A stretch of 64,000 nucleotides of DNA, from contig DASWNF010000005.1 of NCBI GenBank assembly GCA_036399335.1, positions 6,069-70,068 on the forward strand, written 5' to 3'. Below, piece after piece: positions 1 through 41,892 of the stretch. The notes beneath the pieces are model-generated. The model was not told the origin of the DNA and made no database searches. It saw only the letters and a program-made list of their open reading frames with translations. The translations under genes and the position numbers were made by a program. How positions within the stretch are numbered: position 1 is the stretch's first letter; the number at the start of each line of letters is the position of its first letter. Source of the DNA: Minisyncoccota bacterium (lineage in GTDB: Bacteria > Patescibacteriota > Minisyncoccia > Phycocordibacterales > Phycocordibacteraceae).

Positions 1-59
1 ATTGGTTACAGCTGTGCGTTGTCCTTTGGCTGCGCTACCCCTATAACGCGGAGGTCCTG

Positions 60-584
60 ATGCGTCACGAAATCCTTCCCCATCTCTGGCTGCTCGTAAA
101 GCCCTGCATCGCAAGCGCGCTGCTCGGCCTCACCTGGTACTTCGTCTTCTTCAAGAACGGCATCCACTTCGCCAAGGGCGACATGTCGGTGTTCACGGAC
201 GCGGGCATCCCGGTGTTGGCGGCCTTCCATACCTTCATGGCGGCTTTCGTCGTGAGCAAGGTGTGGAAGGAGCACACCGAAATAACGATGTTCTGCCGGA
301 GCAAGGACTATGAGGGATTCCGCCGGATTATCGATAACCGGATCCCGATGACGATTCACTTGCTCCTCGGCACCCTGGCACTGATTATCCAGTTGCTCGT
401 CATGTTGCTCGATTACGAGCGCGCGGACGCAGGTATCGCGCTCACCTGCTCGGTCTCCTTCGTCCTCGTCTTGTATTGGCAGGTCGCGACCAACCTCGAC
501 GACCCGAGCGCGGGCGTCTGGTACGTCAAGCACATACCTCCCTCCTGGCTTAACGGGGAGGAGGAAGAAAAAAGGAGTTCCTGA
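60..584 (+). CDS. hypothetical multi-pass membrane protein
   Basis: 174-aa ORF, several hydrophobic helices, GGAGG SD about 8 nt upstream of ATG, GC-rich third positions; hairpin terminator follows. Opposite-strand ORF 6..533 is an antisense artefact. Confidence 0.5.
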   Translation: MRHEILPHLWLLVKPCIASALLGLTWYFVFFKNGIHFAKGDMSVFTDAGIPVLAAFHTFMAAFVVSKVWKEHTEITMFCRSKDYEGFRRIIDNRIPMTIHLLLGTLALIIQLLVMLLDYERADAGIALTCSVSFVLVLYWQVATNLDDPSAGVWYVKHIPPSWLNGEEEEKRSS

Positions 585-594
585 GGGTTCTCCG

Positions 595-628
595 ATAGCC
601 CCGCCATCTCGGCGGGGCTATGTTTTTA
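595..628. terminator. intrinsic terminator hairpin (ATAGCCCCGCC-loop-GGCGGGGCTAT) followed by GTTTTTA
   Basis: perfect 11-bp inverted repeat then T-tract, between convergent genes 60..584(+) and 626..1018(-). Confidence 0.6.
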
Positions 629-1018
629 TACGTTAGGCCGAAGGTCGACGGTGTGCGCGTCGCTTTGCGCCTGTGCATTCGAACGAGCCTCGTAATGCGC
701 GACGGTGTCGGTATTCCACTTGCGAAGCGTATCCGCTTCGTCGCGAAGGCCCTGGTTCTCCCGCCTCAGGTTGCGGATGTCGAAGCTCCGACGGATGAGG
801 CTCGGGAGCGAGAAGAGCATGCCGAGCAATAGGCCGATGGAGCTTGCGAGAAGGATGAGGAGCGCCAAGGAACTCTCGAATTGCCATCCGAGGAACGTAA
901 GCGAGACGATGTCCGTATTTTGGAGCGCGAAGATGATGGTCGCGGCACCGAGAACGAACCCGAGAATGAGTGGAAGCATGGGATAGGTAATGAGGCTAAT
1001 AAGCTCATCTAGTAGCAT
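626..1018 (-). CDS. LapA-like (DUF1049) small inner-membrane protein
   Basis: 130 aa, N-terminal TM helix, ALQNTDIVSLTFLGWQFESSLALLIL... second helix then basic tail, pattern typical of the LapA/YciS family. Confidence 0.5.
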   Translation of the reverse strand: MLLDELISLITYPMLPLILGFVLGAATIIFALQNTDIVSLTFLGWQFESSLALLILLASSIGLLLGMLFSLPSLIRRSFDIRNLRRENQGLRDEADTLRKWNTDTVAHYEARSNAQAQSDAHTVDLRPNV

Positions 1019-1056
1019 GCCCTATTAAGCATGCGATTTTCATGAAGACTATGCGC

Positions 1057-1353
1057 TTACCGGCTTGGGTAAATGAAATTAATGACACGGTTCCTGAATC
1101 GGTCGGCAAAGCTTTGGATGCGCGGATATTTCTGGGTGCGGCGTTTGACCCAGGCATATACGCTCGGAGACGATATGGAAAGGAGGACAAGCCCGATGAG
1201 CATCGTGATGCGCGATGGGAAGCCCGGCAGGGGCGTACTTACGATGCCGATGATGATGAGCAGCAGCGCGATAAACACGAGGAAGATGCGCTTCGGCGTC
1301 TTCGCATTTCCCTTGAGCTCGCGCCCCGCCTGCTTGATGCTGAACTTAGCCAT
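1057..1353 (-). CDS. small two-TM membrane protein (PGPGW-like)
   Basis: 98 aa, two hydrophobic helices with PLPGFPS motif; overlapping + strand ORF 1042..1836 is acidic antisense junk. Confidence 0.4.
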   Translation of the reverse strand: MAKFSIKQAGRELKGNAKTPKRIFLVFIALLLIIIGIVSTPLPGFPSRITMLIGLVLLSISSPSVYAWVKRRTQKYPRIQSFADRFRNRVINFIYPSR

Positions 1354-1380
1354 AGCTGTGGAACCCTCGCATCCCCTACC

Positions 1381-1926
1381 CTAAGCGATGGTGAACAATA
1401 TCTTGAAGGCAAGCGCAATGAGGACGAGCGCGCCCAGTATCTCAATTTTCGGGCCGATAAGCCGCTTGCTGTGCATGCCGAAGTAGACACCCAGGAGCGA
1501 GAGCACGAAGGTCATGATGCCGAGGGCAACGGCCATGAGGGTGACGGACGCCCCGATGAACGAAAGCGAGATGCCGACGACGAGGGCGTCGACGCTCGTC
1601 GCAAACGCTACGGCGAGCAGCGGGCCGTTCTGGAGGAGGTTCCGTTCGTCATCATCTTCCTTCTTGAGGGCATCGAAGAGCATCTTGAGGCCGATGCCGA
1701 GGAGCAGCACGAAGCTCACGATGCGCGCATACTCGAGCCCTTCGGTGAAGGCGCCCGCGGCAAGGAATCCGACAACCAGCATCACGACGTGGAATACGGA
1801 GAGGGTGAGGGCGATGAAGAGCGCGCGCAGCCATGAGAGGCGGTTCAGGGTGCCCGCCCCTATCGACACGACCGTCGTATCAAGCGAGAGGCTGAGCGCG
1901 AGCGCGAGGACTTCGAGGAGGGACAT
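1381..1926 (-). CDS. mntP: manganese efflux pump MntP family (2x DUF204)
   Basis: 181 aa, six TM segments with internal duplication, length and pattern of MntP/YebN; start overlaps stop of upstream ABC-F gene. Confidence 0.7.
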   Translation of the reverse strand: MSLLEVLALALSLSLDTTVVSIGAGTLNRLSWLRALFIALTLSVFHVVMLVVGFLAAGAFTEGLEYARIVSFVLLLGIGLKMLFDALKKEDDDERNLLQNGPLLAVAFATSVDALVVGISLSFIGASVTLMAVALGIMTFVLSLLGVYFGMHSKRLIGPKIEILGALVLIALAFKILFTIA

Positions 1927-1927
1927 G

Positions 1928-3418
1928 TTACTTCGAGGAGCCTAGGTCAAGTACCTCGTCCACCCGTATCTGCGCCACGAATTCGGGTACGTGGCTTACC
2001 AGGATCATTGCGCCGTCATACGCGTCGAGGGCCTTGGCGATGATGGGGATATGGCGGAAGTTAATGTGGTTGGTCGGCTCATCGAGGATGAGGAGACCCG
2101 GTTCCTCAAGCACGAGCCGCGCAAAGGCGACGAGCCCCTTCTGTCCTTCGGAGAGCATGCCGATCTTCTTATTGATGACGTCGGACGTGATGATGAAGCC
2201 TGCGGCCGTGGCGCGCATCTTCTCCTCGTTCTGCTGCTTCATGACGGAGAGGAGCGACTCGCGCACCGTGTGCTCGAAGTTAAGCGTCGAGAAGTCCTGT
2301 CGGTAATACCCGACGCGCACGCCAGGCGCGATGACAGCGCCCTCGGCCTTCCCTTTAGCGAGGGATTCGAGCAAGGTCGTCTTGCCGATGCCGTTTGGCC
2401 CCTGGAGGAGGAGGTGGTCGCGCTTCTTAAGCGTAATTTCCTTCTTATGCACCTTAGGCTCGTGGGTCTTCGGGTCGAGCGTCGTGTATGACGTTATGGA
2501 AAGTATTTTCCCGACGAGTTCCTGCTGCGAGGGGATGGTAAAGGGGCGGATGGTCTTGTCCTCCTTGCGGACGTCGACCTTATTCTCCTCCATTTCCTCA
2601 ACCTCCTCACGCATCTTCTTGGCGACGAGACGCATCTTGCCTCCTTTCTGCGCGAAGAAGTTCGCCTTGTCCTTATTCTCTTGGATCTTCTTCGCAAGCT
2701 GCGCGTTCTTGCGGTTCTCGCGCTCGATGCGCGCGGAGATCTCCTTTAGGAGGTCGTAGTAGTTGCCCATGTACTGCTCGACCTTGCGCGTATGCACGTC
2801 GAGGTAGAGGACACCGTCCGAAAAGGAGTTAAGGAATTCCGCATCATGCGAAATGACCATACAGCTCTTCTTGTATTCCTTCAGGAAGTCGGTGAGGTGC
2901 GCGATGCCGTCCTTGTCGAGGTTGTTCGTCGGCTCGTCGAGAAGCAGAAGGTCTGGATCCTGGATGAGCGCGCTCGCAAGCAGGAGCCGCGCCTGCTGGC
3001 CGCCCGAAAATGAGTTTATGATGCGCTCCTTGGGCGCCTTCAAATTCACGACCTCAAGTATGGCGTCAATCTTCGGGTCGATGTCATACACCTTCCCGGG
3101 GAAGACCGACTCAAAGAACTCGCGGACCGTCTTCTCCCGGAGGTCGGGCGGGATGACCTGGGCTGCCATGGCAACGCTCGTACCGCGCGTGATGTGGATG
3201 ATGCCCTGCTCGGGCTTGTATTCCCCGGTGATGAGTTTGAACAGCGTCGACTTCCCCGCCCCGTTTTGTCCCATGAGGGTCACCTTCATGCCGCGGCGCA
3301 CTGAAAAGCTCACCTCATCCAGGATGGGGTGGTTGTGGCCATGGTTGAAGTGGACCTCCTCAAAGCGCAAAACTATTTCTTTCGGCGGTGCCGCGTCCTT
3401 GTTCTTCTTATCTGCCAT
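1928..3418 (-). CDS. ABC-F family ATPase (tandem ABC cassettes, Uup/YheS/EttA-like)
   Basis: 496 aa; two Walker A (GQNGAGKST, GPNGIGKTT), two ABC signatures (SGGQQAR, LSEGQKG), Walker B LLLLDEPTN and LLILDEPTN, charged linker between cassettes. Confidence 0.9.
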   Translation of the reverse strand: MADKKNKDAAPPKEIVLRFEEVHFNHGHNHPILDEVSFSVRRGMKVTLMGQNGAGKSTLFKLITGEYKPEQGIIHITRGTSVAMAAQVIPPDLREKTVREFFESVFPGKVYDIDPKIDAILEVVNLKAPKERIINSFSGGQQARLLLASALIQDPDLLLLDEPTNNLDKDGIAHLTDFLKEYKKSCMVISHDAEFLNSFSDGVLYLDVHTRKVEQYMGNYYDLLKEISARIERENRKNAQLAKKIQENKDKANFFAQKGGKMRLVAKKMREEVEEMEENKVDVRKEDKTIRPFTIPSQQELVGKILSITSYTTLDPKTHEPKVHKKEITLKKRDHLLLQGPNGIGKTTLLESLAKGKAEGAVIAPGVRVGYYRQDFSTLNFEHTVRESLLSVMKQQNEEKMRATAAGFIITSDVINKKIGMLSEGQKGLVAFARLVLEEPGLLILDEPTNHINFRHIPIIAKALDAYDGAMILVSHVPEFVAQIRVDEVLDLGSSK

Positions 3419-3563
3419 TTCTTACTACCCTACCGTATAAAGGCCTTTGCGGACAGGCCTATGCCGCAACCAGGCGCGTATATATGACATAAAACCTCCT
3501 TAATTCATTGACAATTTAGCTCATAAGCATCAAAATCCGCCTGGACAAACAAGGAGAGACGAA

Positions 3564-4334
3564 ATGCCGTTAACTAAGAAGGGCTTTGTGGTGATCAATC
3601 TTGCCCTGATCGCCGCCGCCATCGTCACCAGCATCATGTACAGAAGCGCTTTCCTGGTGGCGTGCGGCCTCTACGCAGCGACCTTCGTCACCATGTATGC
3701 GGCCGGATTTTTCAGGCATCGCTGCCCCGCGTGCGCCAGCTTGCTGACCACGTGGTCAGAGGGAGTGAAGGTGTGGCCGGGCGATACGAACCTTGACCCG
3801 ACCGACATTCGGGAATTCGAAGGACTGTTCTGCCATTCATGCGGCGCGATGAGCGAACGTCCTGCCGAGTGGCGCTTGGTGCCGACGGCGACCGCCCGCC
3901 TTCCTCGCGGTCAGAATGCCGCTCGTTTCACCTTCGCCCCGAATGCGCGGCAGCACATCGCCATCTCGGCGGCAGACGCGCTCAACGAGGTGGTGTTCAG
4001 CGGCCGCCTCTCTGCGAAGGATCGCGAACTGCTCGTCCGTGCAATGGAGCTGACCCTCCATCACCAATACATGTATAAGGTGGAAGAGGAGAATCCGCTC
4101 AGGGTTATCCTCTACAACGACGCCTTCTACATGATGGAAGCTGATGCTACCGTCTTCAACAAGGGCTCCCGCTGGCCGCTCGACCACCTCTACGCCGTCG
4201 GCACGCACCTCGCCCAGCAAGCGCTGCAGGCTAAGTACCCGGGCGTCGCCTTCGAGTTCGAGGGCGGCGATAACCTGAACTCCGCCCACACGGCTATCAC
4301 CAGGGCCAACAAAAGCGTGAGGGCGACCGCATAG
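3564..4334 (+). CDS. hypothetical membrane-anchored protein with CxxC...CxxC zinc-ribbon
   Basis: 256 aa, two N-terminal TM helices, CPACAS...CHSCGA pair, AGGAGA SD. Confidence 0.5.
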   Translation: MPLTKKGFVVINLALIAAAIVTSIMYRSAFLVACGLYAATFVTMYAAGFFRHRCPACASLLTTWSEGVKVWPGDTNLDPTDIREFEGLFCHSCGAMSERPAEWRLVPTATARLPRGQNAARFTFAPNARQHIAISAADALNEVVFSGRLSAKDRELLVRAMELTLHHQYMYKVEEENPLRVILYNDAFYMMEADATVFNKGSRWPLDHLYAVGTHLAQQALQAKYPGVAFEFEGGDNLNSAHTAITRANKSVRATA

Positions 4335-4357
4335 GCCGAATCCTCTCAGAGAATCAC

Positions 4358-4392
4358 AACCCGCTCGGCAGTGCCGAGCGGGTTCTTTTATT
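4358..4392 (+). terminator. intrinsic terminator AACCCGCTCGG-loop-CCGAGCGGGTT then CTTTTATT
   Basis: perfect 11-bp stem directly after stop of 3564..4334, T-rich tail. Confidence 0.65.
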
Positions 4393-4483
4393 CATATTGA
4401 TTGAACAGATGTTAGGCGGCGGTGGTGACCAGAGAAGTAAGTCAGTGGAAACTGGAGATTGAGTAGTTGATATAAAGACGGCC

Positions 4484-4822
4484 TCATCCAGGGACGAGGC
4501 CGTCAGTGTCGGGAAGATAGGGTGTGAGCACGAACTTAAGGCGCCGTAAATCAAGCGGCGTAATGAATTCAGCCGCACGTGCCACCACATCTTCCAGGTG
4601 AGGCAGGTACCAGGATTTATTAGGTGTCCCGGCAAGCTCCTTAACGATGAGGACAAAGGAGTGGCTGTTCAGGCAGTAATAGATCTCGACCTCATCGGTC
4701 GTCGCAATTCTGTAACCTTTGAGTTGCCACCTCGCCATACCTGGCATAAGAGCCGTTAATTCAAGACTCTGTGGGGCACCCTTCTTTCGCTCAAGGCGTA
4801 GCTCAAGATATCTTTCCATCAC
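4484..4822 (-). CDS. hypothetical protein (ORFan in low-GC island)
   Basis: 112-aa ORF in an AT-richer segment, no recognisable motif; real start may be an internal Met (MPGMARW / MARWQLK). Confidence 0.35.
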   Translation of the reverse strand: MMERYLELRLERKKGAPQSLELTALMPGMARWQLKGYRIATTDEVEIYYCLNSHSFVLIVKELAGTPNKSWYLPHLEDVVARAAEFITPLDLRRLKFVLTPYLPDTDGLVPG

Positions 4823-4934
4823 ATACTCCCTTCTGGCATCCTTATATCACCAAATGAGTGGCATGTCTGCGGAGGACGCCTGAGGCTTTTTGCTATTGCT
4901 GGCAGTCTGGGACGATGTTGGAAAAGCTTCCTAC

Positions 4935-4963
4935 TTGACAAGTATGATTAAAAGTACTAGTAT
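4935..4963 (+). promoter_or_regulatory. near-consensus sigma70-type promoter (TTGACA-17 nt-TAGTAT)
   Basis: TTGACA at 4935..4940, 17-nt spacer, TAGTAT, then GGAAAGAGAGG SD and ATG at 4989; lies in 165-bp AT-rich divergent spacer. Confidence 0.5.
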
Positions 4964-4988
4964 TATATACAGGAAAGAGAGGTGCTAA

Positions 4989-5369
4989 ATGGTTGACCGC
5001 TTGATCATGGGGGTTTTCGGTCTCCTGGTATTTGCGCTCGTGGTGCTGCTAGGTGTGATCGGATATTACGTGGCTGACTCGGTCAATCTGCCTGAACATG
5101 AAAGTTCAGGTCAGGTTAGCGGGAAAAGCTACCATCACGCTTATACCTCAATGGTAGTCGTATCGACAGGCAGAACGACGACGGTGATACCTCAATATCA
5201 TCCCGAACGCTATTCGATCTGCATATTCGTCGACGCGACCCAACAAATCGGATGCGCCAATTATGCTCAGTCGACCTGGAATCAGGTCGAGAGGGGGCGT
5301 ATGGTGCGTGTGGCCTATACGAGTGGGCGCTTCTCCGGAGCCACCTATATCGGCAATTTCACTTATTGA
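4989..5369 (+). CDS. hypothetical membrane-anchored protein (ORFan in low-GC island)
   Basis: 126 aa, N-terminal TM helix, Thr/Ser-rich body; strong promoter and SD upstream. Confidence 0.4.
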   Translation: MVDRLIMGVFGLLVFALVVLLGVIGYYVADSVNLPEHESSGQVSGKSYHHAYTSMVVVSTGRTTTVIPQYHPERYSICIFVDATQQIGCANYAQSTWNQVERGRMVRVAYTSGRFSGATYIGNFTY

Positions 5370-5460
5370 CCCACCGACGGGATTCCCGCCTCGGTGGGTT
5401 TCCTGTTTTGTGGCTGGGGGTGTGGGACGACGTTAGAACTTTTCTACTATTCTCCAGATA

Positions 5461-5991
5461 TTGAACCAATACGATATCTTGACATATAGAGTGAAACGTC
5501 TTATTCTCTTTGAGAAATTTCATTGGGAAGGGTTTGAAATGAAATCTAAGTTCTTTGAGAACCTGCGCACATTCGGCCCTGATTTGGTCGAATATGCTCA
5601 AGGGTGGATGGTCTGGCGCTCGGGGCAGAAAGCTAAACGTTCTGCTGCGGGAGCGATTGCTGCACTTTTGAAGTTAGAGCTGCGGAGGCAAACCATCTCC
5701 AAAATTGTCGAGGCCTGGGATCCAATCTCAGATGCGGTGGAGCCCGATGGTTTTCCTCTTCCCATGGAGCGAGACATCCAGGCGTACGACGCCGAGGGCA
5801 ATATGGTGGATATGGAGCGTCTCTTTAATGAGTCAAACTCATTACTGCCATCTCATTGGAGTCGTAGGCCATATACCCGGCAGGAGATTGAGATGGCTCT
5901 CGATATTTTGGCCGAAAAGTATCGTGCCGATATACGGGTCGAACACACCTTCCCTCATGGCGCACCTGCACGAGAGTTCAGGTTGAGATAA
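5461..5991 (+). CDS. hypothetical protein (ORFan in low-GC island)
   Basis: 176-aa ORF (alternative start MKSKFF at about 5539); no recognisable domain; followed by hairpin 6018..6050. Confidence 0.4.
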   Translation: MNQYDILTYRVKRLILFEKFHWEGFEMKSKFFENLRTFGPDLVEYAQGWMVWRSGQKAKRSAAGAIAALLKLELRRQTISKIVEAWDPISDAVEPDGFPLPMERDIQAYDAEGNMVDMERLFNESNSLLPSHWSRRPYTRQEIEMALDILAEKYRADIRVEHTFPHGAPAREFRLR

Positions 5992-6017
5992 ATACCAACA
6001 GCCATCAAGTTCTCAGG

Positions 6018-6050
6018 GCCGCTCGATCACTCGAGCGGCTCTACTTGTTT
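6018..6050 (+). terminator. hairpin GCCGCTCGA-TCAC-TCGAGCGGC with T-rich tail
   Basis: perfect 9-bp stem after 5461..5991; tail TCTACTTGTTTATCTGTT only moderately T-rich. Confidence 0.45.
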
Positions 6051-6104
6051 ATCTGTTCCAAGAGCACCGGACACTAAACACTAGCGCTCAATCCGGTTGG
6101 CAGA

Positions 6105-7223
6105 ATGGGTTTTGTACTTGCCTCCATTCCTTTAATAATGGATAGTGCCTATATGCAATTTAAGGCATTCCATACGGTTTCGGATATCTGGGAAGCGCAG
6201 CTCCGGGATATTGAAAGCGCCAAGCACTCTATCCTCCTTGAGCAGTACATCATCGAGGATGTCGTGGGTGACGGCATCGGCCGACGCTTCGTTGATGCAC
6301 TTGTGCGGAAGGCCCGGGAAGGTGTCGAGGTGCGGTGCATACTCGACGCGCAGGGGTGCTTTGAACTTTTCAAGAATTACGAACTCAACAACGAGCTTGC
6401 CGCTGCCGGCGGTAAGGTCTTTTATTACAAGACGCTCGGCGTCACGAACGTCGTCACTCCTGCGCGGCTTTTCCTTCGCGACCACCGGAAGCTCCTCCTC
6501 GTTGACCGCGAAACCACCTGGATCGGCGGTGCCGTCATCGGTGAGCGCTTCCGCGACTGGCAGGACCTCATGGTCCGCTTTACGGACGCACCGCTCGCAG
6601 ACGTATGCGGCAAGGAATTCCGTAACCAACTCCTCAGGCTCCAGGAGAAGGGTTCCCTCCTTGCGCCCTTACAAAAGGTGGATGAGGAAACCCACATTAC
6701 CGGGAACGCGCCCGGCATCGGTAACCGCTTCTGTTATGAGGAACTCTCGCACGCCATCATGCTTGCGGATACGTCGGTAACCCTCGTGACGCCCTATTTC
6801 GCCCCGCCCCTAAAGCTGCAGCGGGTCATTAACCGCCGCCTTCGCGACGGGCTCGAGATTAACCTCATCGTGCCGCGGACAAGCGATAAGCGGCTCGCCG
6901 ACATCGCGCGTGAGGGATACTTCGAGGACATGCTGAAGCACGGGCTTATCCTTAAGTATGTGCCGGGGATGCTTCACGCAAAGATTGTCGTCGTCGACAA
7001 CGAGTGGATGTCGTTCGGCTCCACGAACCTCGATGCCATCAGCCTTATCTTTAACCACGAGCTTAACCTGGTGACCCGCAATGCCGACCTCATTGCAGAG
7101 GTGTGCCGTATCGTGCGCGGCTGGACCGACGGCCTTGAGCGCATCACCACGGAAACGTGTGAATACCGGAAGATGTCGGCCTTGGAGCACTTCCTCGGAC
7201 GCTGTGTCCGTTTCATCGCCTAG
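6105..7223 (+). CDS. phospholipase D / cardiolipin-synthase-like protein (two HKD motifs)
   Basis: 372 aa; HKD motifs RDHRKLLLVD...G and LHAKIVVVDNEWMSFGSTNLD; likely true start at internal Met (MQFKAF, about 6150) because the first 15 codons are AT-rich island sequence. Confidence 0.8.
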   Translation: MGFVLASIPLIMDSAYMQFKAFHTVSDIWEAQLRDIESAKHSILLEQYIIEDVVGDGIGRRFVDALVRKAREGVEVRCILDAQGCFELFKNYELNNELAAAGGKVFYYKTLGVTNVVTPARLFLRDHRKLLLVDRETTWIGGAVIGERFRDWQDLMVRFTDAPLADVCGKEFRNQLLRLQEKGSLLAPLQKVDEETHITGNAPGIGNRFCYEELSHAIMLADTSVTLVTPYFAPPLKLQRVINRRLRDGLEINLIVPRTSDKRLADIAREGYFEDMLKHGLILKYVPGMLHAKIVVVDNEWMSFGSTNLDAISLIFNHELNLVTRNADLIAEVCRIVRGWTDGLERITTETCEYRKMSALEHFLGRCVRFIA

Positions 7224-7287
7224 GACTTGCTTTTCTAGGTATAGTGGGTCATATTAACGCCAGCAACAAAAAAAAGGGGGTAAACGA

Positions 7288-7461
7288 ATGCCGGAGGTTT
7301 CGGGGGAAGACAAGAAGTGTGCACACACGGAGTGCGGCAAGCTCATTCCCGACTTGCCGAATTCCAGTGAAAGCCCGTACTGCCACTCGCTCTGCCAGTG
7401 GTTGCATCAGGCAATCTGGACGCCCTGCGATGCGGGGCCCCAGCAGGAGCAAGCTGCGTAA
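7288..7461 (+). CDS. small Cys/His-rich (putative Zn-binding) protein, 57 aa, absent from ORF track
   Basis: ATG at 7288 preceded by AAAAAAGGGGGTAAACGA (SD GGGGGT); translation MPEVSGEDKKCAHTECGKLIPDLPNSSESPYCHSLCQWLHQAIWTPCDAGPQQEQAA; GC3-rich codons; TAA then perfect 11-bp hairpin. Confidence 0.4.
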   Translation: MPEVSGEDKKCAHTECGKLIPDLPNSSESPYCHSLCQWLHQAIWTPCDAGPQQEQAA

Positions 7462-10837: not shown

Positions 10838-11629
10838 ATGCGGCCTATCTGGTCAGGAGCCCTCACCTTCGGGCTCATCAATATACCCGTGAAGCTCTAC
10901 AGCGCGTCCGAGGAGCGTGCGCTCAAGTTCAAGATGCTTACCAAGCACGGTAATTGCCCCATCAGCTACCTCAAGGTCGTCCGTGGCACGAACAAGGAGG
11001 TTCCCTACGAGGACATCGTAAAGGGGTATGAATACCAGAAGGGCGACTATGTCGTACTCACCGACGACGACTTCAGGAAGGCGTCGCCCCGAAAGACGAA
11101 GACCGTCGATGTCGTGAGCTTCGTCGACGAGGACGAGATAGATAGCCGGTACGTGAACAAACCCTATTACCTCGAGCCCGATCCCAAGGCCGAAAAGGCG
11201 TACGTACTCCTGCGCGAGGCGCTCCGCCGCGCAAAGAAAGTGGGCGTCGCCACCTTCGTGCTTCGCGATAAGGAACATGTGGCCATGATCCGTCCTGAAG
11301 GCCATGCGCTCATGCTCGTGCAGCTCCGGTATGAGGACGAAATCCGGAAGCCCGAAGACCTGAAGCTGCCGAAGGACGCTAAGTACTCGGAGAAAGAACT
11401 CAAGATGGCGCTTGCCTTGATCGGGCAGCTCGAGGAGCATTTTAATGCGAAGGAGTTTAAGGACACGTATACGGAAGAACTCGAGAAGGTCATCGCAAAG
11501 AAGGCCAAGGGCCAGACGGTGAAAGTGAGCGGCGAGGACGCCGCTCCGGTACCGACCGACATGAAGAACCTCATGGAGGCGCTCCGCAAGAGCCTTGAGG
11601 AAGAACAAAAGCGCCCCGTGCGCGCATAG
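10838..11629 (+). CDS. ku: non-homologous end-joining protein Ku
   Basis: 263 aa; N-terminal MRPIWSGALTFGLINIPVKLYSA... and core typical of bacterial Ku; immediately upstream of ligD. Confidence 0.9.
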   Translation: MRPIWSGALTFGLINIPVKLYSASEERALKFKMLTKHGNCPISYLKVVRGTNKEVPYEDIVKGYEYQKGDYVVLTDDDFRKASPRKTKTVDVVSFVDEDEIDSRYVNKPYYLEPDPKAEKAYVLLREALRRAKKVGVATFVLRDKEHVAMIRPEGHALMLVQLRYEDEIRKPEDLKLPKDAKYSEKELKMALALIGQLEEHFNAKEFKDTYTEELEKVIAKKAKGQTVKVSGEDAAPVPTDMKNLMEALRKSLEEEQKRPVRA

Positions 11630-11641
11630 CTGCCGCTCCCT

Positions 11642-14200
11642 ATGTCACTACTCGGCGAGTACAACCGCAAGCGTTCCTTCAAGAAGACGCCCGAGCCGAA
11701 GGGCGCCGTTAAGAAGTCCGCCGGCCCGCTCCATTTCGTCGTCCAGAAGCATGACGCCACGCGCCTCCACTATGACTTCCGTCTCGAGATCGATGGCGTG
11801 CTCAAGAGCTGGGCAGTGCCGAAGGGGCCTTCCCTGAACCCGTCCGACAAGCGCCTCGCCATGATGACGGAAGACCACCCGTATTCGTATAAGGACTTCG
11901 AGGGCGTTATCCCTGCGGGCGAATATGGCGGGGGCGACGTAATCGTCTGGGACACCGGGGTCTTCGCAAGCAGCGAGTCGTCAGGCCCGGAGGATGGCCA
12001 CAAGAAGCTCAAGTCCGGGCTCCATAGAGGCGAGCTGTCATTCGTACTGTTTGGCGAGAAGCTCAAAGGAGGGTTCAAGCTCGTGAAGATACAAAACGGC
12101 AAGGAGGACAACGCCTGGCTCCTTATGAAGGCAAAGGACGAGTATGCTGAAAAACGCGACGTCACCGAAGATACCGCCTCCGTGCTCTCGGGGCGCATAC
12201 TTCCCCGCGATGTCCCTGGTAAGTTAGTGAAAAAGGGCGCGGGCCTGCAGGCAGTTACTGCCGGTATGCCGAAAAAGGAAAAGACCCCCGCGCCTCCCGC
12301 AAAGAAGGCCAAACGAGGCACGGACCCGATGCCCCGCGACGTGAGCCCCATGCTCGCGACGCTTATCGATGCGCCCTTCGACCGCGCCGGGTGGATATAC
12401 GAGATGAAGTGGGACGGCTACCGGGCAGTAGCCGAGGTAGAAGGCGGCGACGTGCGGCTCTACTCACGTAACGGCAAGTCGTTTGCCGGCACCTACACTC
12501 CCGTCGTTACGGCACTCAAAAGTCTCGGGCACGATGCCGTGCTCGACGGCGAGATAATCGCGCTTAAGGACGGCCGTCCTGATTTCCACGCGCTCCAACA
12601 ATATAAGGACGCGCCCGTCCCGCTCCAGTACGCCATCTTCGACGCCCTATGGATTAACGGCGAGGACTTGCGCGAGCTCCCGCTCATTGAGCGTAAGGAG
12701 CGTCTTGTCGGCATAATTCCCGAAAGCCCCCACCTCTTCGTAAGCGAGCACATCGAGGAGCACGGCACGGCTTTTTTCGAGGAGATGCGCAAGCAATCCT
12801 TCGAGGGCATGCTCGCCAAAGACGGCCAAAGCCGGTACGTGACGAAGTCTCGCTCGAAGTCCTGGCTCAAGGTGAAGACGAGCAACGAGCAGGAGGCCGT
12901 TATCGTCGGCTACACCGAACCGCGCGGTTCACGTAAGAGCCTCGGCGCGCTCGTACTCGCGGCGCACATTAATGGGGTGCTTACCTACATCGGCCACAGC
13001 GGCGGCGGCTTTACGGGCAAGGAGCTCGCCGACCTGTGCAAGAAACTGTCGAAGGTTAAGGTGAATAAATCTCCCATCGCGGAAAAGGTCCCCATCAACT
13101 CCCCCATTACCTGGGTAAAGCCTCACTACGTGTGCCAGGTGAAGTTTACCGAATGGACGCCAAGTGGGCGCATGCGCCACCCTATTTACGTAGGGCTGCG
13201 GGTAGATAAGGAGGCGAAGGACGTCGTGAAGGAATCTCCCGAGGACGTAGGTGGAGGTAGTGAACTTACACCCACACCACCGAAGAAGGCGGCTGCACGT
13301 GCAAAGGCCGCCACAGCGACTGAAACCCCGTTTACGAACCTTACGAAGGTGTACTGGGAGGAGGAAGGCATTACGAAGGGCGACCTCATCGACTACTACC
13401 AGGCAATGGCGCCCCTCATGCTCCCCTACCTCAAGGACCGCCCTGAAAACTTAAACCGGCACCCGAACGGCTGGAAGGGCAAGAATTTCTACCAGAAGGA
13501 CATGAAGGCCGAGCTCCCCGACTTCGCGCGGTCAGTCGAGATATGGTCGGAGAGCAACAAGGCGGAGCTCCGGTATCTCGTCTGCGACAATGAGGAGACC
13601 CTGCTCTATATGGCAAACCTCGGCTGCATTGAAATTAACCCGTGGAATTCGCGCGTCACTTCGATCGATAATCCGGACTACATGGTATTCGACCTTGATC
13701 CCGATACCAATACGATGGACGAGCTCGTCGAAGTAGCGCAGGAATTCCATAAGGTACTTACGCGTGCGTGCGAGGAGCACTATATAAAGACTTCCGGCAA
13801 GACCGGGCTCCATATCTACGTACCGCTTAACGGCCGCTACGGCTACGACCAGATACGCACCTTCTCGGAGCTTGTCTGCCGACTCGTGCACCGGAAATTC
13901 CCGAAGAATACGAGTCTTGAGCGGAGCGTCTCAAAACGCAAGGGACAAATATACCTCGATTATATGCAGAATCGCTTCGGGCAGACTATTGCTGCGCCGT
14001 ATTCCGTGCGTCCAGCAGCAGGCGCGACGGTCTCTACGCCGCTCGAATGGAGCGAGGTGCGCAAAGGGCTCGACCCGACCAAGTTTACGATCAAGACTAT
14101 CGGGAAGCGCCTCGAGAAAAAAGGAGACCTCTGGGAACCCGTACTCGGGAAGGGCGTCGACCTCGCGGCCTCGATCAAGTGCCTTGAGGCGGAGTTCTAG
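11642..14200 (+). CDS. ligD: multidomain ATP-dependent DNA ligase LigD (phosphoesterase - ligase - polymerase/primase)
   Basis: 852 aa; N-terminal PE domain (HFVVQKHDATRLHYDFRLE), ligase motif I EMKWDGYR, C-terminal primase-like polymerase domain (MVFDLDPD...). Confidence 0.92.
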   Translation: MSLLGEYNRKRSFKKTPEPKGAVKKSAGPLHFVVQKHDATRLHYDFRLEIDGVLKSWAVPKGPSLNPSDKRLAMMTEDHPYSYKDFEGVIPAGEYGGGDVIVWDTGVFASSESSGPEDGHKKLKSGLHRGELSFVLFGEKLKGGFKLVKIQNGKEDNAWLLMKAKDEYAEKRDVTEDTASVLSGRILPRDVPGKLVKKGAGLQAVTAGMPKKEKTPAPPAKKAKRGTDPMPRDVSPMLATLIDAPFDRAGWIYEMKWDGYRAVAEVEGGDVRLYSRNGKSFAGTYTPVVTALKSLGHDAVLDGEIIALKDGRPDFHALQQYKDAPVPLQYAIFDALWINGEDLRELPLIERKERLVGIIPESPHLFVSEHIEEHGTAFFEEMRKQSFEGMLAKDGQSRYVTKSRSKSWLKVKTSNEQEAVIVGYTEPRGSRKSLGALVLAAHINGVLTYIGHSGGGFTGKELADLCKKLSKVKVNKSPIAEKVPINSPITWVKPHYVCQVKFTEWTPSGRMRHPIYVGLRVDKEAKDVVKESPEDVGGGSELTPTPPKKAAARAKAATATETPFTNLTKVYWEEEGITKGDLIDYYQAMAPLMLPYLKDRPENLNRHPNGWKGKNFYQKDMKAELPDFARSVEIWSESNKAELRYLVCDNEETLLYMANLGCIEINPWNSRVTSIDNPDYMVFDLDPDTNTMDELVEVAQEFHKVLTRACEEHYIKTSGKTGLHIYVPLNGRYGYDQIRTFSELVCRLVHRKFPKNTSLERSVSKRKGQIYLDYMQNRFGQTIAAPYSVRPAAGATVSTPLEWSEVRKGLDPTKFTIKTIGKRLEKKGDLWEPVLGKGVDLAASIKCLEAEF

Positions 14201-17756: not shown

Positions 17757-18341
17757 TCATAGGCTCTTGATGTCTGCGACAAGCTCAGGGAACTCTTCCT
17801 GATTAAAATGCCCACGGTCTTCAAAAGAACGTACTACGGCATTTGGTAGTGCAGCCGTATATTTTTCTACTTCTTCGTAGGGGACGACCTGATCATCCTT
17901 GCTGTGGTACAGGAAGATTGTTCCTGCCTGCTTGGCAAAATGTTCCAGCGAACTATCTATACTAAATTCAGGCAATGCGCGGTTACCGTTAGGATATGTA
18001 CCCGCAACCAGAACGGTAGCCACTATTTTTTTCGGGAAATTGTTCTCAGTTAGATATTTGACCAAGAAGTCAGCGCCAAGCGAATGGCCGATCAAGATAA
18101 CCTCGTCGTTAAGGAGCGGCACGTATTTTTCAAACCAAATACTCCACTCGCCATACTTGGCATTAAACGAATTAGGCATGCGCGGGAGAATTACTTGGTA
18201 GTTTGTGCCAAGCACTTCCTGTAATCCCGACTTCCATCCGCGACCTGGCTCGAGGTCAACTACGGCTTTTTTCAAGAAATCCAGGTACTCCCCGTACGTG
18301 TTAAAAGACTCCCCACCATGAATGGCTATTACCTGCTTCAT
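17757..18341 (-). CDS. alpha/beta hydrolase (YdeN/RBBP9-like serine hydrolase)
   Basis: 194 aa, nucleophile elbow ILIGHSLGADF, conserved Asp/His downstream. Confidence 0.7.
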   Translation of the reverse strand: MKQVIAIHGGESFNTYGEYLDFLKKAVVDLEPGRGWKSGLQEVLGTNYQVILPRMPNSFNAKYGEWSIWFEKYVPLLNDEVILIGHSLGADFLVKYLTENNFPKKIVATVLVAGTYPNGNRALPEFSIDSSLEHFAKQAGTIFLYHSKDDQVVPYEEVEKYTAALPNAVVRSFEDRGHFNQEEFPELVADIKSL

Positions 18342-41806: not shown

Positions 41807-41892
41807 TGGTGCGCCGGGCAGGATTCGAACCTGCGTAGGATAAATCCGCTTGGTTTACAGCCAAGTGCAATTGACCACTCTGCCACCGACGC
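41807..41892 (-). tRNA. tRNA-Tyr (anticodon GUA), class II with long variable arm, CCA encoded
   Basis: reverse complement reads GCGTCGG TG GCAG AGTGGTCAATTGC ACTTGG CTGTAAA CCAAG CGGATTTATCCTACG CAGG TTCGAAT CCTGC CCGGCGC A CCA; acceptor 7 bp (one G-U), anticodon loop CUGUAAA, T-loop TTCGAAT. Confidence 0.85.

What the first reader, a model, noticed from the sequence alone, without database searches (positions are those of the whole stretch)
4396..6104. About 1.7-kb low-GC island with three ORFans in divergent arrangement and a near-consensus promoter
Between the terminator at 4358..4392 and the PLD gene, base composition drops to roughly 48-52 % GC. This interrupts an otherwise uniformly GC-rich, tightly packed chromosome. 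The island holds three ORFs without recognisable domains (4484..4822 -, 4989..5369 +, 5461..5991 +). They are arranged divergently around a 165-bp AT-rich spacer. That spacer carries TTGACA-17-TAGTAT plus a strong SD. It is the only near-consensus sigma70 promoter I can see in the window. The AT-rich sequence even runs into the annotated 5' end of the PLD gene. The pattern (compositional outlier, own promoter and terminators, small secreted or membrane ORFans) is typical of horizontally acquired toxin/immunity or defence cassettes.
Basis: seen in the sequence. Interest (0 to 1): 0.6.

Follow-up and report, generated by a model that had tools for sequence, protein, structure and literature searches.

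The report
Gene-cassette hotspot in a Paceibacterota genome
The low-GC island is not a toxin or defence operon but three unrelated, self-contained single-gene units separated by a conserved 27-base repeat; related uncultured bacteria carry the same repeat between entirely different genes, which suggests a previously undescribed cassette-exchange hotspot.

Summary
The composition drop is real. Window 4396..6104 is 50.0% GC against 58.9% overall, the lowest 1.7-kb stretch in the window. GC3 is 0.53-0.58 against about 0.75 in neighbouring genes. The window is a Candidatus Paceibacterota metagenome contig.

The three ORFs are real genes, but they are not a functional cassette. Each has its own predicted promoter, ribosome-binding site and terminator. 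Each has one or two relatives elsewhere, always alone and in unrelated neighbourhoods. DNA similarity of ORF2 to its only relative starts at the -35 box and stops after the terminator. ORF2 and ORF3 are under purifying selection. No domain, defence-system, PDB or fold match was found, so their functions stay unknown.

A 27-nt direct repeat (GCTGGCAGTCTGGGACGATGTTGGAAC) brackets the ORF2 unit. Thirteen strong copies occur in five related loci. They are always intergenic, co-oriented within a locus, and 0.25-1 kb apart. Two syntenic relatives differ only in the interval between tRNA-Gln and the ABC-F gene, and that interval holds these repeats with different genes between them. These intervals are 47-50% GC in four loci with 52-62% GC backgrounds. 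The repeat resembles one relative's tRNA-Gln 3' end. No recombinase lies nearby, so recombination at the repeat is inferred, not shown.

The parts
1928..3418 (-). ABC-F ATPase gene. It is the conserved anchor gene next to which the repeat-bounded variable region lies, here and in relatives.
   Evidence: Pfam ABC_tran x2. Relatives at 74-81% identity were found. Repeat arrays lie within 0.2-4 kb of this gene in L011, L019 and L021.
3564..4334 (+). 256-aa protein with two membrane segments and a zinc-ribbon-like motif. It is the left flank, has native composition (61% GC), and has its own promoter-like site at 3508 and terminator at 4358..4392.
   Evidence: No relative was found in any fetched locus.
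4477..4504 (-). Terminator-like hairpin of ORF1.
4484..4819 (-). ORF1, 111 aa, soluble, function unknown. It belongs to a small family of 108-111-aa proteins.
   Evidence: Relatives are P0007 (51% identity, E 6e-26) and P0008 (34%, E 1.5e-12). They sit in unrelated contexts, each with its own terminator. Alignment A5. The AF2 model is poor (pLDDT 56, five strands then a helix) and has no fold match.
4841..4869 (-). Possible ORF1 promoter: CAGACA-17-TGnTATAAG.
   Evidence: Read by eye. It fails the scanner's rule for T at position 6. Inferred only.
4898..4924 (+). Junction repeat, copy A: GCTGGCAGTCTGGGACGATGTTGGAAA.
   Evidence: nhmmer E 4e-9. It ends 10 nt before the -35 box of ORF2.
4935..4963 (+). 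ORF2 promoter-like site, TTGACA-17-TAGTAT. It is conserved in the only homologous locus.
4989..5369 (+). ORF2, 126 aa. It has an N-terminal membrane anchor and an extracytoplasmic domain of about 90 aa with two invariant cysteines. Function unknown.
   Evidence: Homologue P0002 at 61% identity. dN/dS 0.13. Hydropathy peak 3.0. phrog_6716 at E 9e-6. Weak tblastn hits to Vibrio phage hypothetical proteins.
5370..5409 (+). ORF2 terminator hairpin (CCCACCGA...TCGGTGGG) plus T-run. It is 33/40 identical to the homologous locus, more conserved than the coding sequence.
5413..5439 (+). Junction repeat, copy B: GCTGGGGGTGTGGGACGACGTTAGAAC.
   Evidence: nhmmer E 1.5e-6.
5479..5507 (+). ORF3 promoter-like site, TTGACA-17-TATTCT. 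The -35 box and the leader AAATTTCATTGGGA are conserved in homologous loci.
5539..5991 (+). ORF3, 150 aa, soluble alpha/beta protein, function unknown.
   Evidence: Homologues P0005 (70%) and P0006 (61%). dN/dS 0.14-0.25. AF2 pLDDT 75, pTM 0.65. No PDB or BFVD fold match.
6015..6083 (+). ORF3 terminator hairpin (6015..6042), with compensatory stem changes in the homologous loci. It is followed by a conserved 3' flank to about 6083.
   Evidence: The post-terminator similarity to L005 was reached by 0 of 500 shuffles.
6093..6106 (+). Possible degenerate left half of a third repeat copy (GTTGGCAGAATGGG, 11 of 14 matches). Tentative.
   Evidence: Read by eye. Not reported by nhmmer at E<10.
6153..7223 (+). 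PLD-family (cardiolipin-synthase-like, two HKD domains) gene, the right flank, with a corrected start.

Best explanation
The island is one instance of a lineage-conserved accessory-gene hotspot next to the ABC-F gene of a Paceibacterota clade. It is a mosaic of three unrelated, horizontally acquired single-gene transcription units (ORF1, ORF2, ORF3). Each has its own promoter, ribosome-binding site and terminator.

The units are joined by a conserved 27-nt direct repeat, GCTGGCAGTCTGGGACGATGTTGGAAC. In relatives the same repeat separates entirely different small genes, in arrays that start right after tRNA-Gln.

Most likely mechanism (inferred). The repeat is an att-like junction site, related to the 3' end of tRNA-Gln. 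A recombinase encoded elsewhere inserts, excises or swaps small cassettes at this site. New units accumulate and older ones are pushed along, as in tRNA-linked islands. The cassettes come from a shared pool of about 48-50% GC. That is why they stand out in this 59% GC genome.

The three proteins act independently: one membrane-anchored surface protein and two cytoplasmic proteins. Their biochemical functions are unknown.

Shown: the composition, the autonomy and separate distribution of the genes, purifying selection on ORF2 and ORF3, the repeat and its array organisation, and the variable interval between syntenic flanks.

Inferred: that the repeat is a recombination site, and that the cassettes are mobilised in trans.
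For: Composition.

Autonomy of the three units:
- Promoter-like and terminator-like sites flank each ORF.
- ORF2's similarity to L003 runs exactly from window 4935 (-35 box) to 5405 (after the hairpin) and nowhere else in 64 kb.
- In L003 the gene sits between groES/groEL and secG.
- ORF3's relatives keep the promoter, leader and a covarying terminator but have other neighbours.
- ORF1's relatives are again solitary units elsewhere.

Selection: dN/dS is 0.13-0.25 with saturated dS. The promoter and terminator are better conserved than synonymous sites.

The repeat:
- The two window copies bracket the ORF2 unit within 7-10 nt.
- There are 13 copies at nhmmer E 1e-10 to 1e-6 in the window, L007, L011, L019 and L021. 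Five shuffles of 1 Mb gave none.
- All copies are intergenic, co-oriented within each locus, and 256-967 bp apart.
- Only 4 of 13 copies precede a good promoter.

The hotspot:
- L019 and L021 are collinear over 21 kb, except between tRNA-Gln and ABC-F. That interval holds the repeats with different genes between them.
- Arrays share almost no cassettes.
- The repeat-bounded intervals are 47-50% GC in the four loci whose backgrounds are 52-62% GC.
- The repeat aligns to the reverse complement of the L021 tRNA-Gln 3' end plus flank. No shuffle out of 300 reached the score, and tRNA-Tyr and tRNA-Ser show no such similarity.

Published parallel: tRNA-linked islands built by successive integrations and flanked by partial tRNAs (bioRxiv 10.1101/2020.12.28.424599).

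Weak hint of an alternative junction: a contig of the same strain from another run stops exactly at the last base of copy A. Its terminal base is the repeat-consensus C, not the window's A.
Against: - No integrase, transposase or other recombinase occurs within about 10 kb to the left or 50 kb to the right of the island. None is next to the arrays in L019 or L021.
- In the window there is no tRNA-Gln next to the island.
- The repeat is not an exact copy of a tRNA 3' end. Its consensus is not significantly similar to the L019 tRNA-Gln.
- The repeat is not palindromic, unlike typical tyrosine-recombinase core sites (read from the sequences).
- ORF2's relative in L003 and ORF1's relatives have no repeat nearby. 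The genes can therefore exist without it.
- dS between copies is saturated. The sampled copies are not recent transfers of one another.
- No excision or insertion polymorphism was directly observed.
- Only five loci carry strong copies, and all were fetched through ABC-F or PLD. Genome-wide frequency is unknown.
Confidence: 0.6

Rival explanations
1. Toxin/immunity or anti-phage defence cassette. The three genes work together as one horizontally acquired functional module.
For: The island is a compositional outlier made of small genes without known domains. ORF2 is membrane-anchored. ORF1's low-confidence model of five strands plus a C-terminal helix is loosely reminiscent of small toxin folds.
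Against: - The genes never co-occur in any other locus.
- Each has its own promoter-like and terminator-like sites, and ORF1 is divergent.
- There are no PADLOC, Pfam, NCBIfam or PDB hits.
- Fold searches found nothing below E 0.02.
Confidence: 0.06
2. The 27-nt repeat is a regulatory DNA site, such as an operator or upstream promoter element of a lineage-specific regulator, that controls a regulon of small genes. On this reading the island is simply a cluster of co-regulated accessory genes, and the repeat has nothing to do with recombination.
For: Copy A and two L019 copies lie 7-10 nt upstream of strong TTGACA -35 boxes. The repeat is highly conserved across genomes of 49-62% GC, as expected for a protein-binding site.
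Against: - Five of 13 copies have no promoter-like site within 75 nt downstream. Several are followed by the 3' end of a convergent gene.
- The distance to the nearest promoter varies from 7 to 39 nt.
- Copies often follow a terminator within a few to 14 nt.
- All copies are co-oriented, whatever the orientation of the neighbouring gene.
- The repeats mark exactly the interval that differs between syntenic genomes.
Confidence: 0.15
3. Inert scars. The island and its counterparts are eroded remains of larger integrative elements or prophages that once inserted at tRNA-Gln. The repeats are decaying att sites and the small genes are moron-like leftovers. No cassette exchange operates today.
For: - Arrays lie next to tRNA-Gln in L019 and L021.
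- The repeat resembles a tRNA-Gln 3' end.
- The units have a moron-like architecture.
- ORF2 has a PHROG hit and weak phage hits.
- No recombinase lies nearby.
Against: - Decaying scars should diverge independently. Instead the copies share the same derived 27-nt sequence across genomes whose orthologous proteins are only 63-81% identical.
- No phage structural or replication genes, nor fragments of them, occur in any array.
- None of the three families was found in IMG/VR.
Confidence: 0.17

Closest known systems
tRNA-linked hypervariable genomic islands built by successive integrations (Prochlorococcus islands and tycheposons; Hackl et al., bioRxiv 10.1101/2020.12.28.424599)
   Same: - A variable interval at a conserved chromosomal position, next to a tRNA gene in the relatives L019 and L021.
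- Co-oriented direct repeats related to the tRNA 3' end between cargo segments.
- Cargo of foreign composition and mostly unknown function.
- Different content in otherwise syntenic genomes.
   Different: - The units are tiny, 0.25-1 kb with one gene each.
- No integrase or replication module is seen in or beside any array.
- The repeat is a conserved derived sequence, not an exact partial tRNA.
- In the window itself the tRNA is absent.
Integron cassette arrays and CALINs (clusters of attC sites lacking an integrase)
   Same: Arrays of single-gene cassettes separated by co-oriented conserved sites spaced a few hundred bp apart. Cassette content is unique to each genome. No integrase is adjacent, as in CALINs.
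   Different: - The site is 27 nt and not palindromic. It has no inverse-core/core pair and no attC-type hairpin.
- The cassettes carry their own promoters and terminators and occur in both orientations.
- No IntI was found.
Phage morons (autonomous promoter-gene-terminator units of deviant composition inside prophages; my own knowledge of Hendrix and colleagues' concept)
   Same: Each of ORF1-3 is a promoter-gene-terminator unit whose composition differs from its surroundings. ORF2 has distant phage relatives.
   Different: The surroundings are core chromosomal genes, not a prophage. None of the families was found in IMG/VR.
Type II toxin-antitoxin or small defence cassettes
   Same: Small genes of deviant composition in a variable region.
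   Different: There is no operon structure, no conserved gene pairing, and no profile or fold match.

Membership tests
Integron / CALIN | Integron integrase (IntI) next to the array. Required for an integron, absent in a CALIN. | tested here: not met
   The Pfam lists of called genes contain no integrase from about 10 kb to the left of the island to about 50 kb to its right. None is beside the arrays of L007, L019 or L021.
Integron / CALIN | attC sites: imperfect palindromes with an inverse core (RYYYAAC) and a core (GTTRRRY) that fold into a hairpin. | tested here: not met
   The repeat ends in GTTGGAA or GTTAGAA, which is core-like (6 of 7). However, no complementary TTCYAAC lies upstream, and the 27-mer has no dyad symmetry (read).
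Integron / CALIN | Mostly promoterless cassettes, co-oriented with the array. | tested here: not met
   The cassettes have their own promoter-like and terminator-like sites and occur on both strands.
tRNA-linked integrative island (tycheposon-like) | Location directly 3' of a tRNA gene. | tested here: inconclusive
   Met in L019 (tRNA-Gln 7215-7286) and L021 (5224-5295). Not met in the window, where the only tRNA is tRNA-Tyr at 41807.
tRNA-linked integrative island (tycheposon-like) | Flanking direct repeats that are partial copies of the tRNA 3' end. | tested here: inconclusive
   The repeat is significantly similar to the reverse complement of the L021 tRNA-Gln 3' end plus 4 nt (0 of 300 shuffles). 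The match has 2 mismatches and 2 indels. It is not significant against the L019 tRNA-Gln.
tRNA-linked integrative island (tycheposon-like) | An element-encoded tyrosine or serine recombinase, at least in some copies. | tested here: not met
   None was found in the sequence held. Whole genomes were not available.
tRNA-linked integrative island (tycheposon-like) | Variable content between otherwise syntenic genomes, and deviant composition. | tested here: met
   L019 against L021. GC of the repeat-bounded intervals against the rest of each locus.
Phage moron | An autonomous transcription unit of deviant composition. | tested here: met
   The signals are predicted and conserved, not measured.
Phage moron | Embedded between genes of a prophage or phage genome. 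| tested here: not met
   The neighbours are ABC-F, MntP, PLD, a histidine kinase, Ku/LigD and housekeeping genes.
Type II toxin-antitoxin pair | Two adjacent co-transcribed small genes whose pairing is conserved. | tested here: not met
   Each gene has separate promoter-like and terminator-like sites. No co-occurrence was seen in any homologous locus.
Known anti-phage defence systems (PADLOC-DB 2.0) | A profile match of at least one component. | tested here: not met
   ORF1-3 and the 256-aa neighbour have no hit at E<=1. Only the flanking PLD gene gives generic weak DrmC/PLD hits.

The most novel reading that the evidence does not exclude
Paceibacterota (candidate phyla radiation) may possess a previously undescribed cassette-exchange system that works like an integron. 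Complete single-gene transcription units would be inserted, excised and shuffled at a conserved 27-nt, non-palindromic site derived from tRNA-Gln. The recombinase would be encoded elsewhere in the genome, or another enzyme such as the reverse transcriptase-zinc-finger protein beside the L007 array would be involved. The result would be hypervariable arrays fed from a shared gene pool of about 48% GC that crosses hosts of 49-62% GC.
Probability: 0.3. Interest if true: 0.8.

Novelty: new variant of a known kind. Interest (0 to 1): 0.6.

Why it matters
Candidate phyla radiation bacteria have tiny genomes, few recognisable mobile elements and very many genes of unknown function. How they gain and exchange accessory genes is poorly understood.

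A short conserved junction repeat marks single-gene cassettes at a conserved chromosomal position, with different content in each genome and a composition that does not follow the host's. This gives a concrete, searchable handle on that process:
- The 27-mer can be used to find all such arrays.
- It can be used to catalogue the cassette pool, which probably includes surface and host-interaction proteins.
- It can be used to look for the enzyme that acts on it.

If the repeat proves to be a recombination site, this would be a new kind of cassette system. If not, it is still a strongly conserved non-coding element of unknown function.

For the three proteins themselves the result is sobering. 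They are real, selected genes with no detectable relationship to anything characterised.

Tried and rejected
**Function searches**
- Pfam, NCBIfam, PADLOC and PHROGs on all three ORFs and their relatives gave nothing. The one exception is phrog_6716 (unknown function) for ORF2.
- PDB sequence searches gave nothing below E 0.7.
- IMG/VR scans for each family found no relatives. tblastn against INPHARED found only weak Vibrio phage hits for ORF2.
- Rfam found nothing in the island.

**Synteny test**
- PLD relatives (57-65% identity) and ABC-F relatives (up to 81%) share no other neighbours with the window. The question of whether the flanks are adjacent elsewhere could not be answered directly.

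**Ideas considered and dropped**
- Att-like repeats flanking the whole island: none found.
- A tRNA relic at window 6094-6120: not significant.
- The repeat as a target-site duplication made by insertion of ORF2: replaced by the array finding.
- The repeat as a sigma-54 promoter, an ECF -35 box, a dif/Xer site, an attC site, a REP element or a CRISPR repeat. Each was checked by eye against my recollection of the consensus and fits poorly. None was formally tested.
- The repeat as a genuine tRNA 3' end: its T-loop and stem do not fit (by eye), and the similarity to tRNA-Gln is only partial.
- A phage attP. The 19-mer core hit more than 120 IMG/VR contigs, but all hits lie in one phage cytosine-methyltransferase gene (peptide VWDDVGTF), which is a coincidence. 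A 22-mer that includes the repeat's specific left part has no viral hit.
- P0009 and P0010 are repetitive proteins and were treated as spurious ORF1 hits.

**Literature**
- A search of the held paper library for the repeat sequence found nothing.
Full report
**Source and observation**

The window is part of a 100.5-kb metagenome contig (JGI 3300034138 Ga0334955_000052, also ENA ERZ27253082). NCBI labels it 'MAG TPA: Candidatus Paceibacterota bacterium', locus tags VGB97_00920 to 00930.

The window as a whole is 58.9% GC. The stretch 4396..6104 is 50.0% GC and is the lowest 1.7-kb stretch in the window (sliding mean 0.590, sd 0.023). Third-codon-position GC is 0.56, 0.58 and 0.53 for the three ORFs, against 0.70-0.81 for most neighbouring genes. 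The compositional observation therefore holds.

A few other small genes in the window also have low GC. One example is a serine hydrolase at 17757..18341 (46.5% GC). None of them forms a comparable block.

**Gene models and signals**

- ORF1 (4484..4819, minus strand, 111 aa) follows GGGAG. It ends in a hairpin terminator at 4504..4477.
- ORF2 (4989..5369, 126 aa) follows TTGACA-17-TAGTAT (4935..4963) and a strong ribosome-binding site. It ends in a hairpin at 5370..5398.
- ORF3 most likely starts at ATG 5539 (150 aa), behind GGGAAGGG and TTGACA-17-TATTCT (5479..5507). It ends in a hairpin at 6015..6042.
- The PLD gene most likely starts at 6153. Its homologues are 355 aa and their similarity starts at about 6159.

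The claim that 4935 is the only near-consensus promoter is wrong. Six sites in the window score at least 10 of 12, but three of the six lie in 3508..5507. Only ORF2 has a membrane segment.

**The three genes are real but unrelated to each other, and each travels alone**

ORF2:
- Its single relative (61% identity) lies on a 279-kb contig of about 50% GC, between groES/groEL and secG.
- DNA similarity between the two loci begins at the -35 box (window 4935) and ends just after the terminator hairpin (5405). Nothing else in the 64-kb window matches that locus.

ORF3:
- It has two relatives (70% and 61% identity) on short contigs of 45% and 40% GC, with other neighbours.
- The -35 box, the leader and the terminator are conserved. 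The terminator stem shows compensatory changes.
- About 40 nt beyond the terminator are also conserved (0 of 500 shuffles).

ORF1:
- The word-indexed search found no relative.
- The exhaustive HMMER search found two proteins of the same length, at 51% and 34% identity.
- Both sit in unrelated contexts, each with its own terminator.

Selection and composition:
- dN/dS is 0.13 for ORF2 and 0.14-0.25 for ORF3, with saturated synonymous divergence. The promoter and terminator segments are 72-82% identical, far better conserved than synonymous sites.
- Each family keeps its own GC whatever the host: ORF1 52-54%, ORF2 50-52%, ORF3 47-49%.

In no locus do two of the three families occur together. This argues against a toxin/immunity pair or a multi-gene defence system.

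**Function**

- Pfam, NCBIfam and PADLOC give nothing for the three proteins or their relatives.
- ORF2 weakly matches phrog_6716, a family of unknown function. It also weakly matches hypothetical proteins of Vibrio phages.
- PDB sequence searches give nothing.
- The ORF3 model is moderately confident (pLDDT 75, pTM 0.65). It has no PDB or BFVD match below E 0.02.
- The ORF1 model is poor (pLDDT 56), and its matches are not meaningful.

I can say only the following. ORF2 is a membrane-anchored protein with a small, probably extracytoplasmic domain and two invariant cysteines. ORF1 and ORF3 are soluble proteins.

**A conserved junction repeat**

A repeat search found a 26-nt direct repeat upstream of both ORF2 and ORF3. 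A 16-nt degenerate pattern taken from the two copies themselves matches only these two sites. None of 100 shuffles of the window gave two matches.

The two copies (4898..4924 and 5413..5439) bracket the ORF2 unit almost exactly. The segment shared with L003 fills the interval, leaving 10 nt on the left and 7 nt on the right.

The same sequence turned up in loci that I had fetched for unrelated reasons, as relatives of the flanking ABC-F and PLD genes:

| Locus | Strong copies |
|---|---|
| Window | 2 |
| L007 | 3 (plus one weak) |
| L011 | 2 |
| L019 | 4 |
| L021 | 2 |

- That makes 13 copies in all, at nhmmer E-values of 1e-10 to 1e-6. Five shuffles of 1 Mb gave none.
- The consensus is GCTGGCAGTCTGGGACGATGTTGGAAC, and the flanks are not conserved.
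- All copies are intergenic and co-oriented within a locus. Neighbouring copies are 256-967 bp apart.
- Several copies lie within a few to 14 nt after a terminator hairpin.
- Four copies are followed within 40 nt by a good promoter, and five have none within 75 nt. Several are followed by the end of a convergent gene.
- More distant genomes (L026, L036, L044, L066, L080) carry weaker variants that keep the right half GGGACGATGTTAGAACC.

**The repeats mark a hypervariable interval**

L019 and L021 come from different metagenomes. They are 62% and 52% GC outside their arrays. They are collinear over about 21 kb, with the matching stretches mostly 50-93% identical when translated. The one exception is the interval between tRNA-Gln(ttg) and the ABC-F gene. 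That interval holds the repeats, with different small genes between them.

Only one 81-aa gene is shared between the two intervals, and it is inverted. Across all arrays almost no cassette is shared.

Most cassette ORFs have no Pfam match. The few that do are a DUF6766 membrane protein, a lone dCache domain and an HD phosphohydrolase. One L019 cassette is a promoter, about 190 nt of apparently non-coding sequence and a terminator, with no Rfam match at E<=0.01.

| Locus | Repeat-bounded interval GC | Rest of locus GC |
|---|---|---|
| L019 | 48.0% | 61.7% |
| L021 | 47.9% | 52.3% |
| L007 | 47.1% | 53.6% |
| Window | 50.0% | 58.9% (whole window) |

In L011 the interval (50.0%) does not differ from the rest of the short locus (49.2%).

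In the window the far flank is PLD, not tRNA-Gln.

**Relation to tRNA-Gln, and the missing enzyme**

- Read on the strand of the adjacent tRNA-Gln, the repeat resembles the 3' end of the L021 tRNA-Gln plus four flanking bases: ATTGCTGGGAGACTAGGGATCGA against ATTGCTGGCAGTCTGGGACGA. No shuffle out of 300 reached the score. There is no such similarity to tRNA-Tyr or tRNA-Ser.
- The repeat consensus is not significantly similar to the L019 tRNA-Gln. Window copy B is weakly similar to it (5 of 300 shuffles).
- The repeat is not a functional tRNA end (by eye).
- No recombinase gene occurs in the annotated stretch from about 10 kb left of the island to about 50 kb right of it, which is housekeeping. 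None is beside the arrays of L019 or L021.
- In L007 a gene for a reverse transcriptase fused to a DnaG-type CHC2 zinc finger ends 80 nt before the first (weak) repeat copy. It is a single case.
- A 19-mer from the repeat hit more than 120 IMG/VR contigs. All hits lie in one phage cytosine-methyltransferase gene, which is a coincidence. A 22-mer that includes the repeat's specific left part has no viral hit.

**Mechanism**

The most economical reading is a tRNA-linked integration hotspot. Small, complete transcription units are inserted or exchanged at an att-like site, older units are pushed along, and the cargo comes from a pool shared among hosts of different GC. This parallels the tRNA-linked islands of Prochlorococcus, where successive integrations leave partial tRNAs between cargo segments (bioRxiv 10.1101/2020.12.28.424599).

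The steps that are shown and those that are inferred are listed under the best explanation.

One weak hint of activity exists. In another sequencing run of the same strain, a contig identical to window 1..4923 stops exactly at the last base of copy A. Its terminal base is the repeat-consensus C, where the window has A. The next contig starts only at 5108. This could be an assembly break at an alternative junction, or it could be chance.

**Rivals**

- *Regulatory site.* This fits the three copies that sit just upstream of -35 boxes. It does not fit the copies without promoters, the co-orientation that ignores gene direction, or the coincidence with the variable interval.
- *Inert scars of eroded elements.* This fits the lack of a recombinase. 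It does not fit the near-identity of the copies across genomes whose proteins are only 63-81% identical.
- *Toxin/immunity or defence.* This has no positive support.

**Comparison with known systems, and novelty**

The structure works most like a tRNA-linked island or an integron-type cassette array. It fails the defining features of integrons: no attC-type palindromes, no IntI, and cassettes that carry their own promoters. It only partly meets those of tRNA-integrating elements: no integrase, and a repeat that is only tRNA-like.

The individual units look like phage morons, but they are not in a prophage.

I rate it a new variant of a known kind. A sequence search of the held literature found no mention of the repeat. 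That corpus is limited to open-access papers and preprints.

**Limits**

- Only five loci carry strong copies, and all were reached through ABC-F or PLD. Genome-wide frequency is unknown.
- No close relative of the window genome was found, so the flank-adjacency test was not possible.
- Promoters and terminators are predictions, supported by conservation but not by transcript data.

Noticed in passing
L007:6267-7541 (+): A 424-aa protein combines a reverse transcriptase domain (RVT_1, E 2e-11) with a C-terminal DnaG-type CHC2 zinc finger (E 5e-28). It ends 80 nt before the first (weak) copy of the 27-nt repeat in that locus. It could be a cassette itself, a defence-type RT, or linked to the array.
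   Followed up: partly
L019:8210-8400 (- strand): One inter-repeat cassette holds no ORF of note. It consists of a TTGACA-16-TACTAT promoter, about 190 nt of GC-rich and apparently structured sequence, and a strong terminator. Rfam finds no match at E<=0.01, so it may be an undescribed small RNA. The next cassette (L019 about 9290-8860) has a leader of about 180 nt before a 78-aa ORF.
   Followed up: partly
L218:1 (Logan SRR10954984); window 4924: A contig from another sequencing run is 100% identical to window 1..4923. It ends exactly at the last base of repeat copy A, and its terminal base matches the repeat consensus (C) where the window has A. The neighbouring contig L219 equals window 5108..6777. 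This may be an alternative junction, or a chance break.
   Followed up: partly
window 6105-6152: The longest ORF for the PLD-family gene (start 6105) and the JGI gene call (start 6138) are probably too long. Homologues are 355 aa and similarity starts at about 6159, which favours ATG 6153. The protein has two PLDc_2 domains and scores below the cut-off for cardiolipin synthase (TIGR04265, 145 bits against 290).
   Followed up: yes
window 10838-14200: Ku (263 aa) and a full-length LigD (852 aa: phosphoesterase, ligase and primase-polymerase domains) lie side by side. This is a complete non-homologous end-joining pair in a candidate-phyla-radiation genome, a group usually described as having a reduced repair repertoire.
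   Followed up: no
window 17757-18341 (-): A 194-aa serine hydrolase gene (Ser_hydrolase, E 2.5e-11) has 46.5% GC and GC3 of 0.50. It sits between native-composition genes and is probably another isolated foreign gene. No copy of the 27-nt repeat is nearby.
   Followed up: partly
L005:366-821 and its ends: The ORF3 homologue on this 946-bp contig has an in-frame TAG where the other family members have Trp. The source predicted the protein with Gln at that position. The contig ends in the 3' end of a tRNA or tmRNA-like gene on the minus strand (920-946, Rfam E 0.006). By eye it also carries a tRNA-like 3' half at about 155-210, which no tool confirmed.
   Followed up: partly
L094-L213 (IMG/VR): The 19-mer GTCTGGGACGAYGTTGGAA from the repeat occurs exactly in more than 120 viral contigs of 59-70% GC. 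In all of them it encodes VWDDVGTF in one conserved phage cytosine-5 DNA methyltransferase gene. I judged this a coincidence amplified by a large gene family.
   Followed up: yes
L026 (1111-7777), L044:6139, L036:4082, L080:925 and 3805, L066:1275: Genomes of 36-49% GC that are more distant relatives carry co-oriented intergenic copies of a variant repeat. The right half (GGGACGATGTTAGAACC) is conserved but the left half is different. The element family may therefore be much wider than the five loci analysed.
   Followed up: partly
window 3564-4334 (+): The gene just left of the island encodes a 256-aa protein with two N-terminal membrane segments, a CxxC...CxxC zinc-ribbon-like motif and a C-terminal domain without matches. 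It has its own strong promoter-like site (3508) and terminator, native GC (61%), and no relative in any fetched locus. It may be an older, ameliorated cassette.
   Followed up: partly
L019:6539-7213 (+): A 224-aa ORF with a weak helix-turn-helix match lies between a conserved 303-aa gene and tRNA-Gln in L019. It is absent at the same place in the syntenic L021. This is a second small insertion at the same hotspot, on the other side of the tRNA.
   Followed up: no
window 7288-7461 (+): A 57-aa cysteine-rich ORF (CxxC-type spacing) lies between the PLD gene and the hybrid histidine kinase. Both public annotations call it a gene, and it has no family match on record.
   Followed up: no
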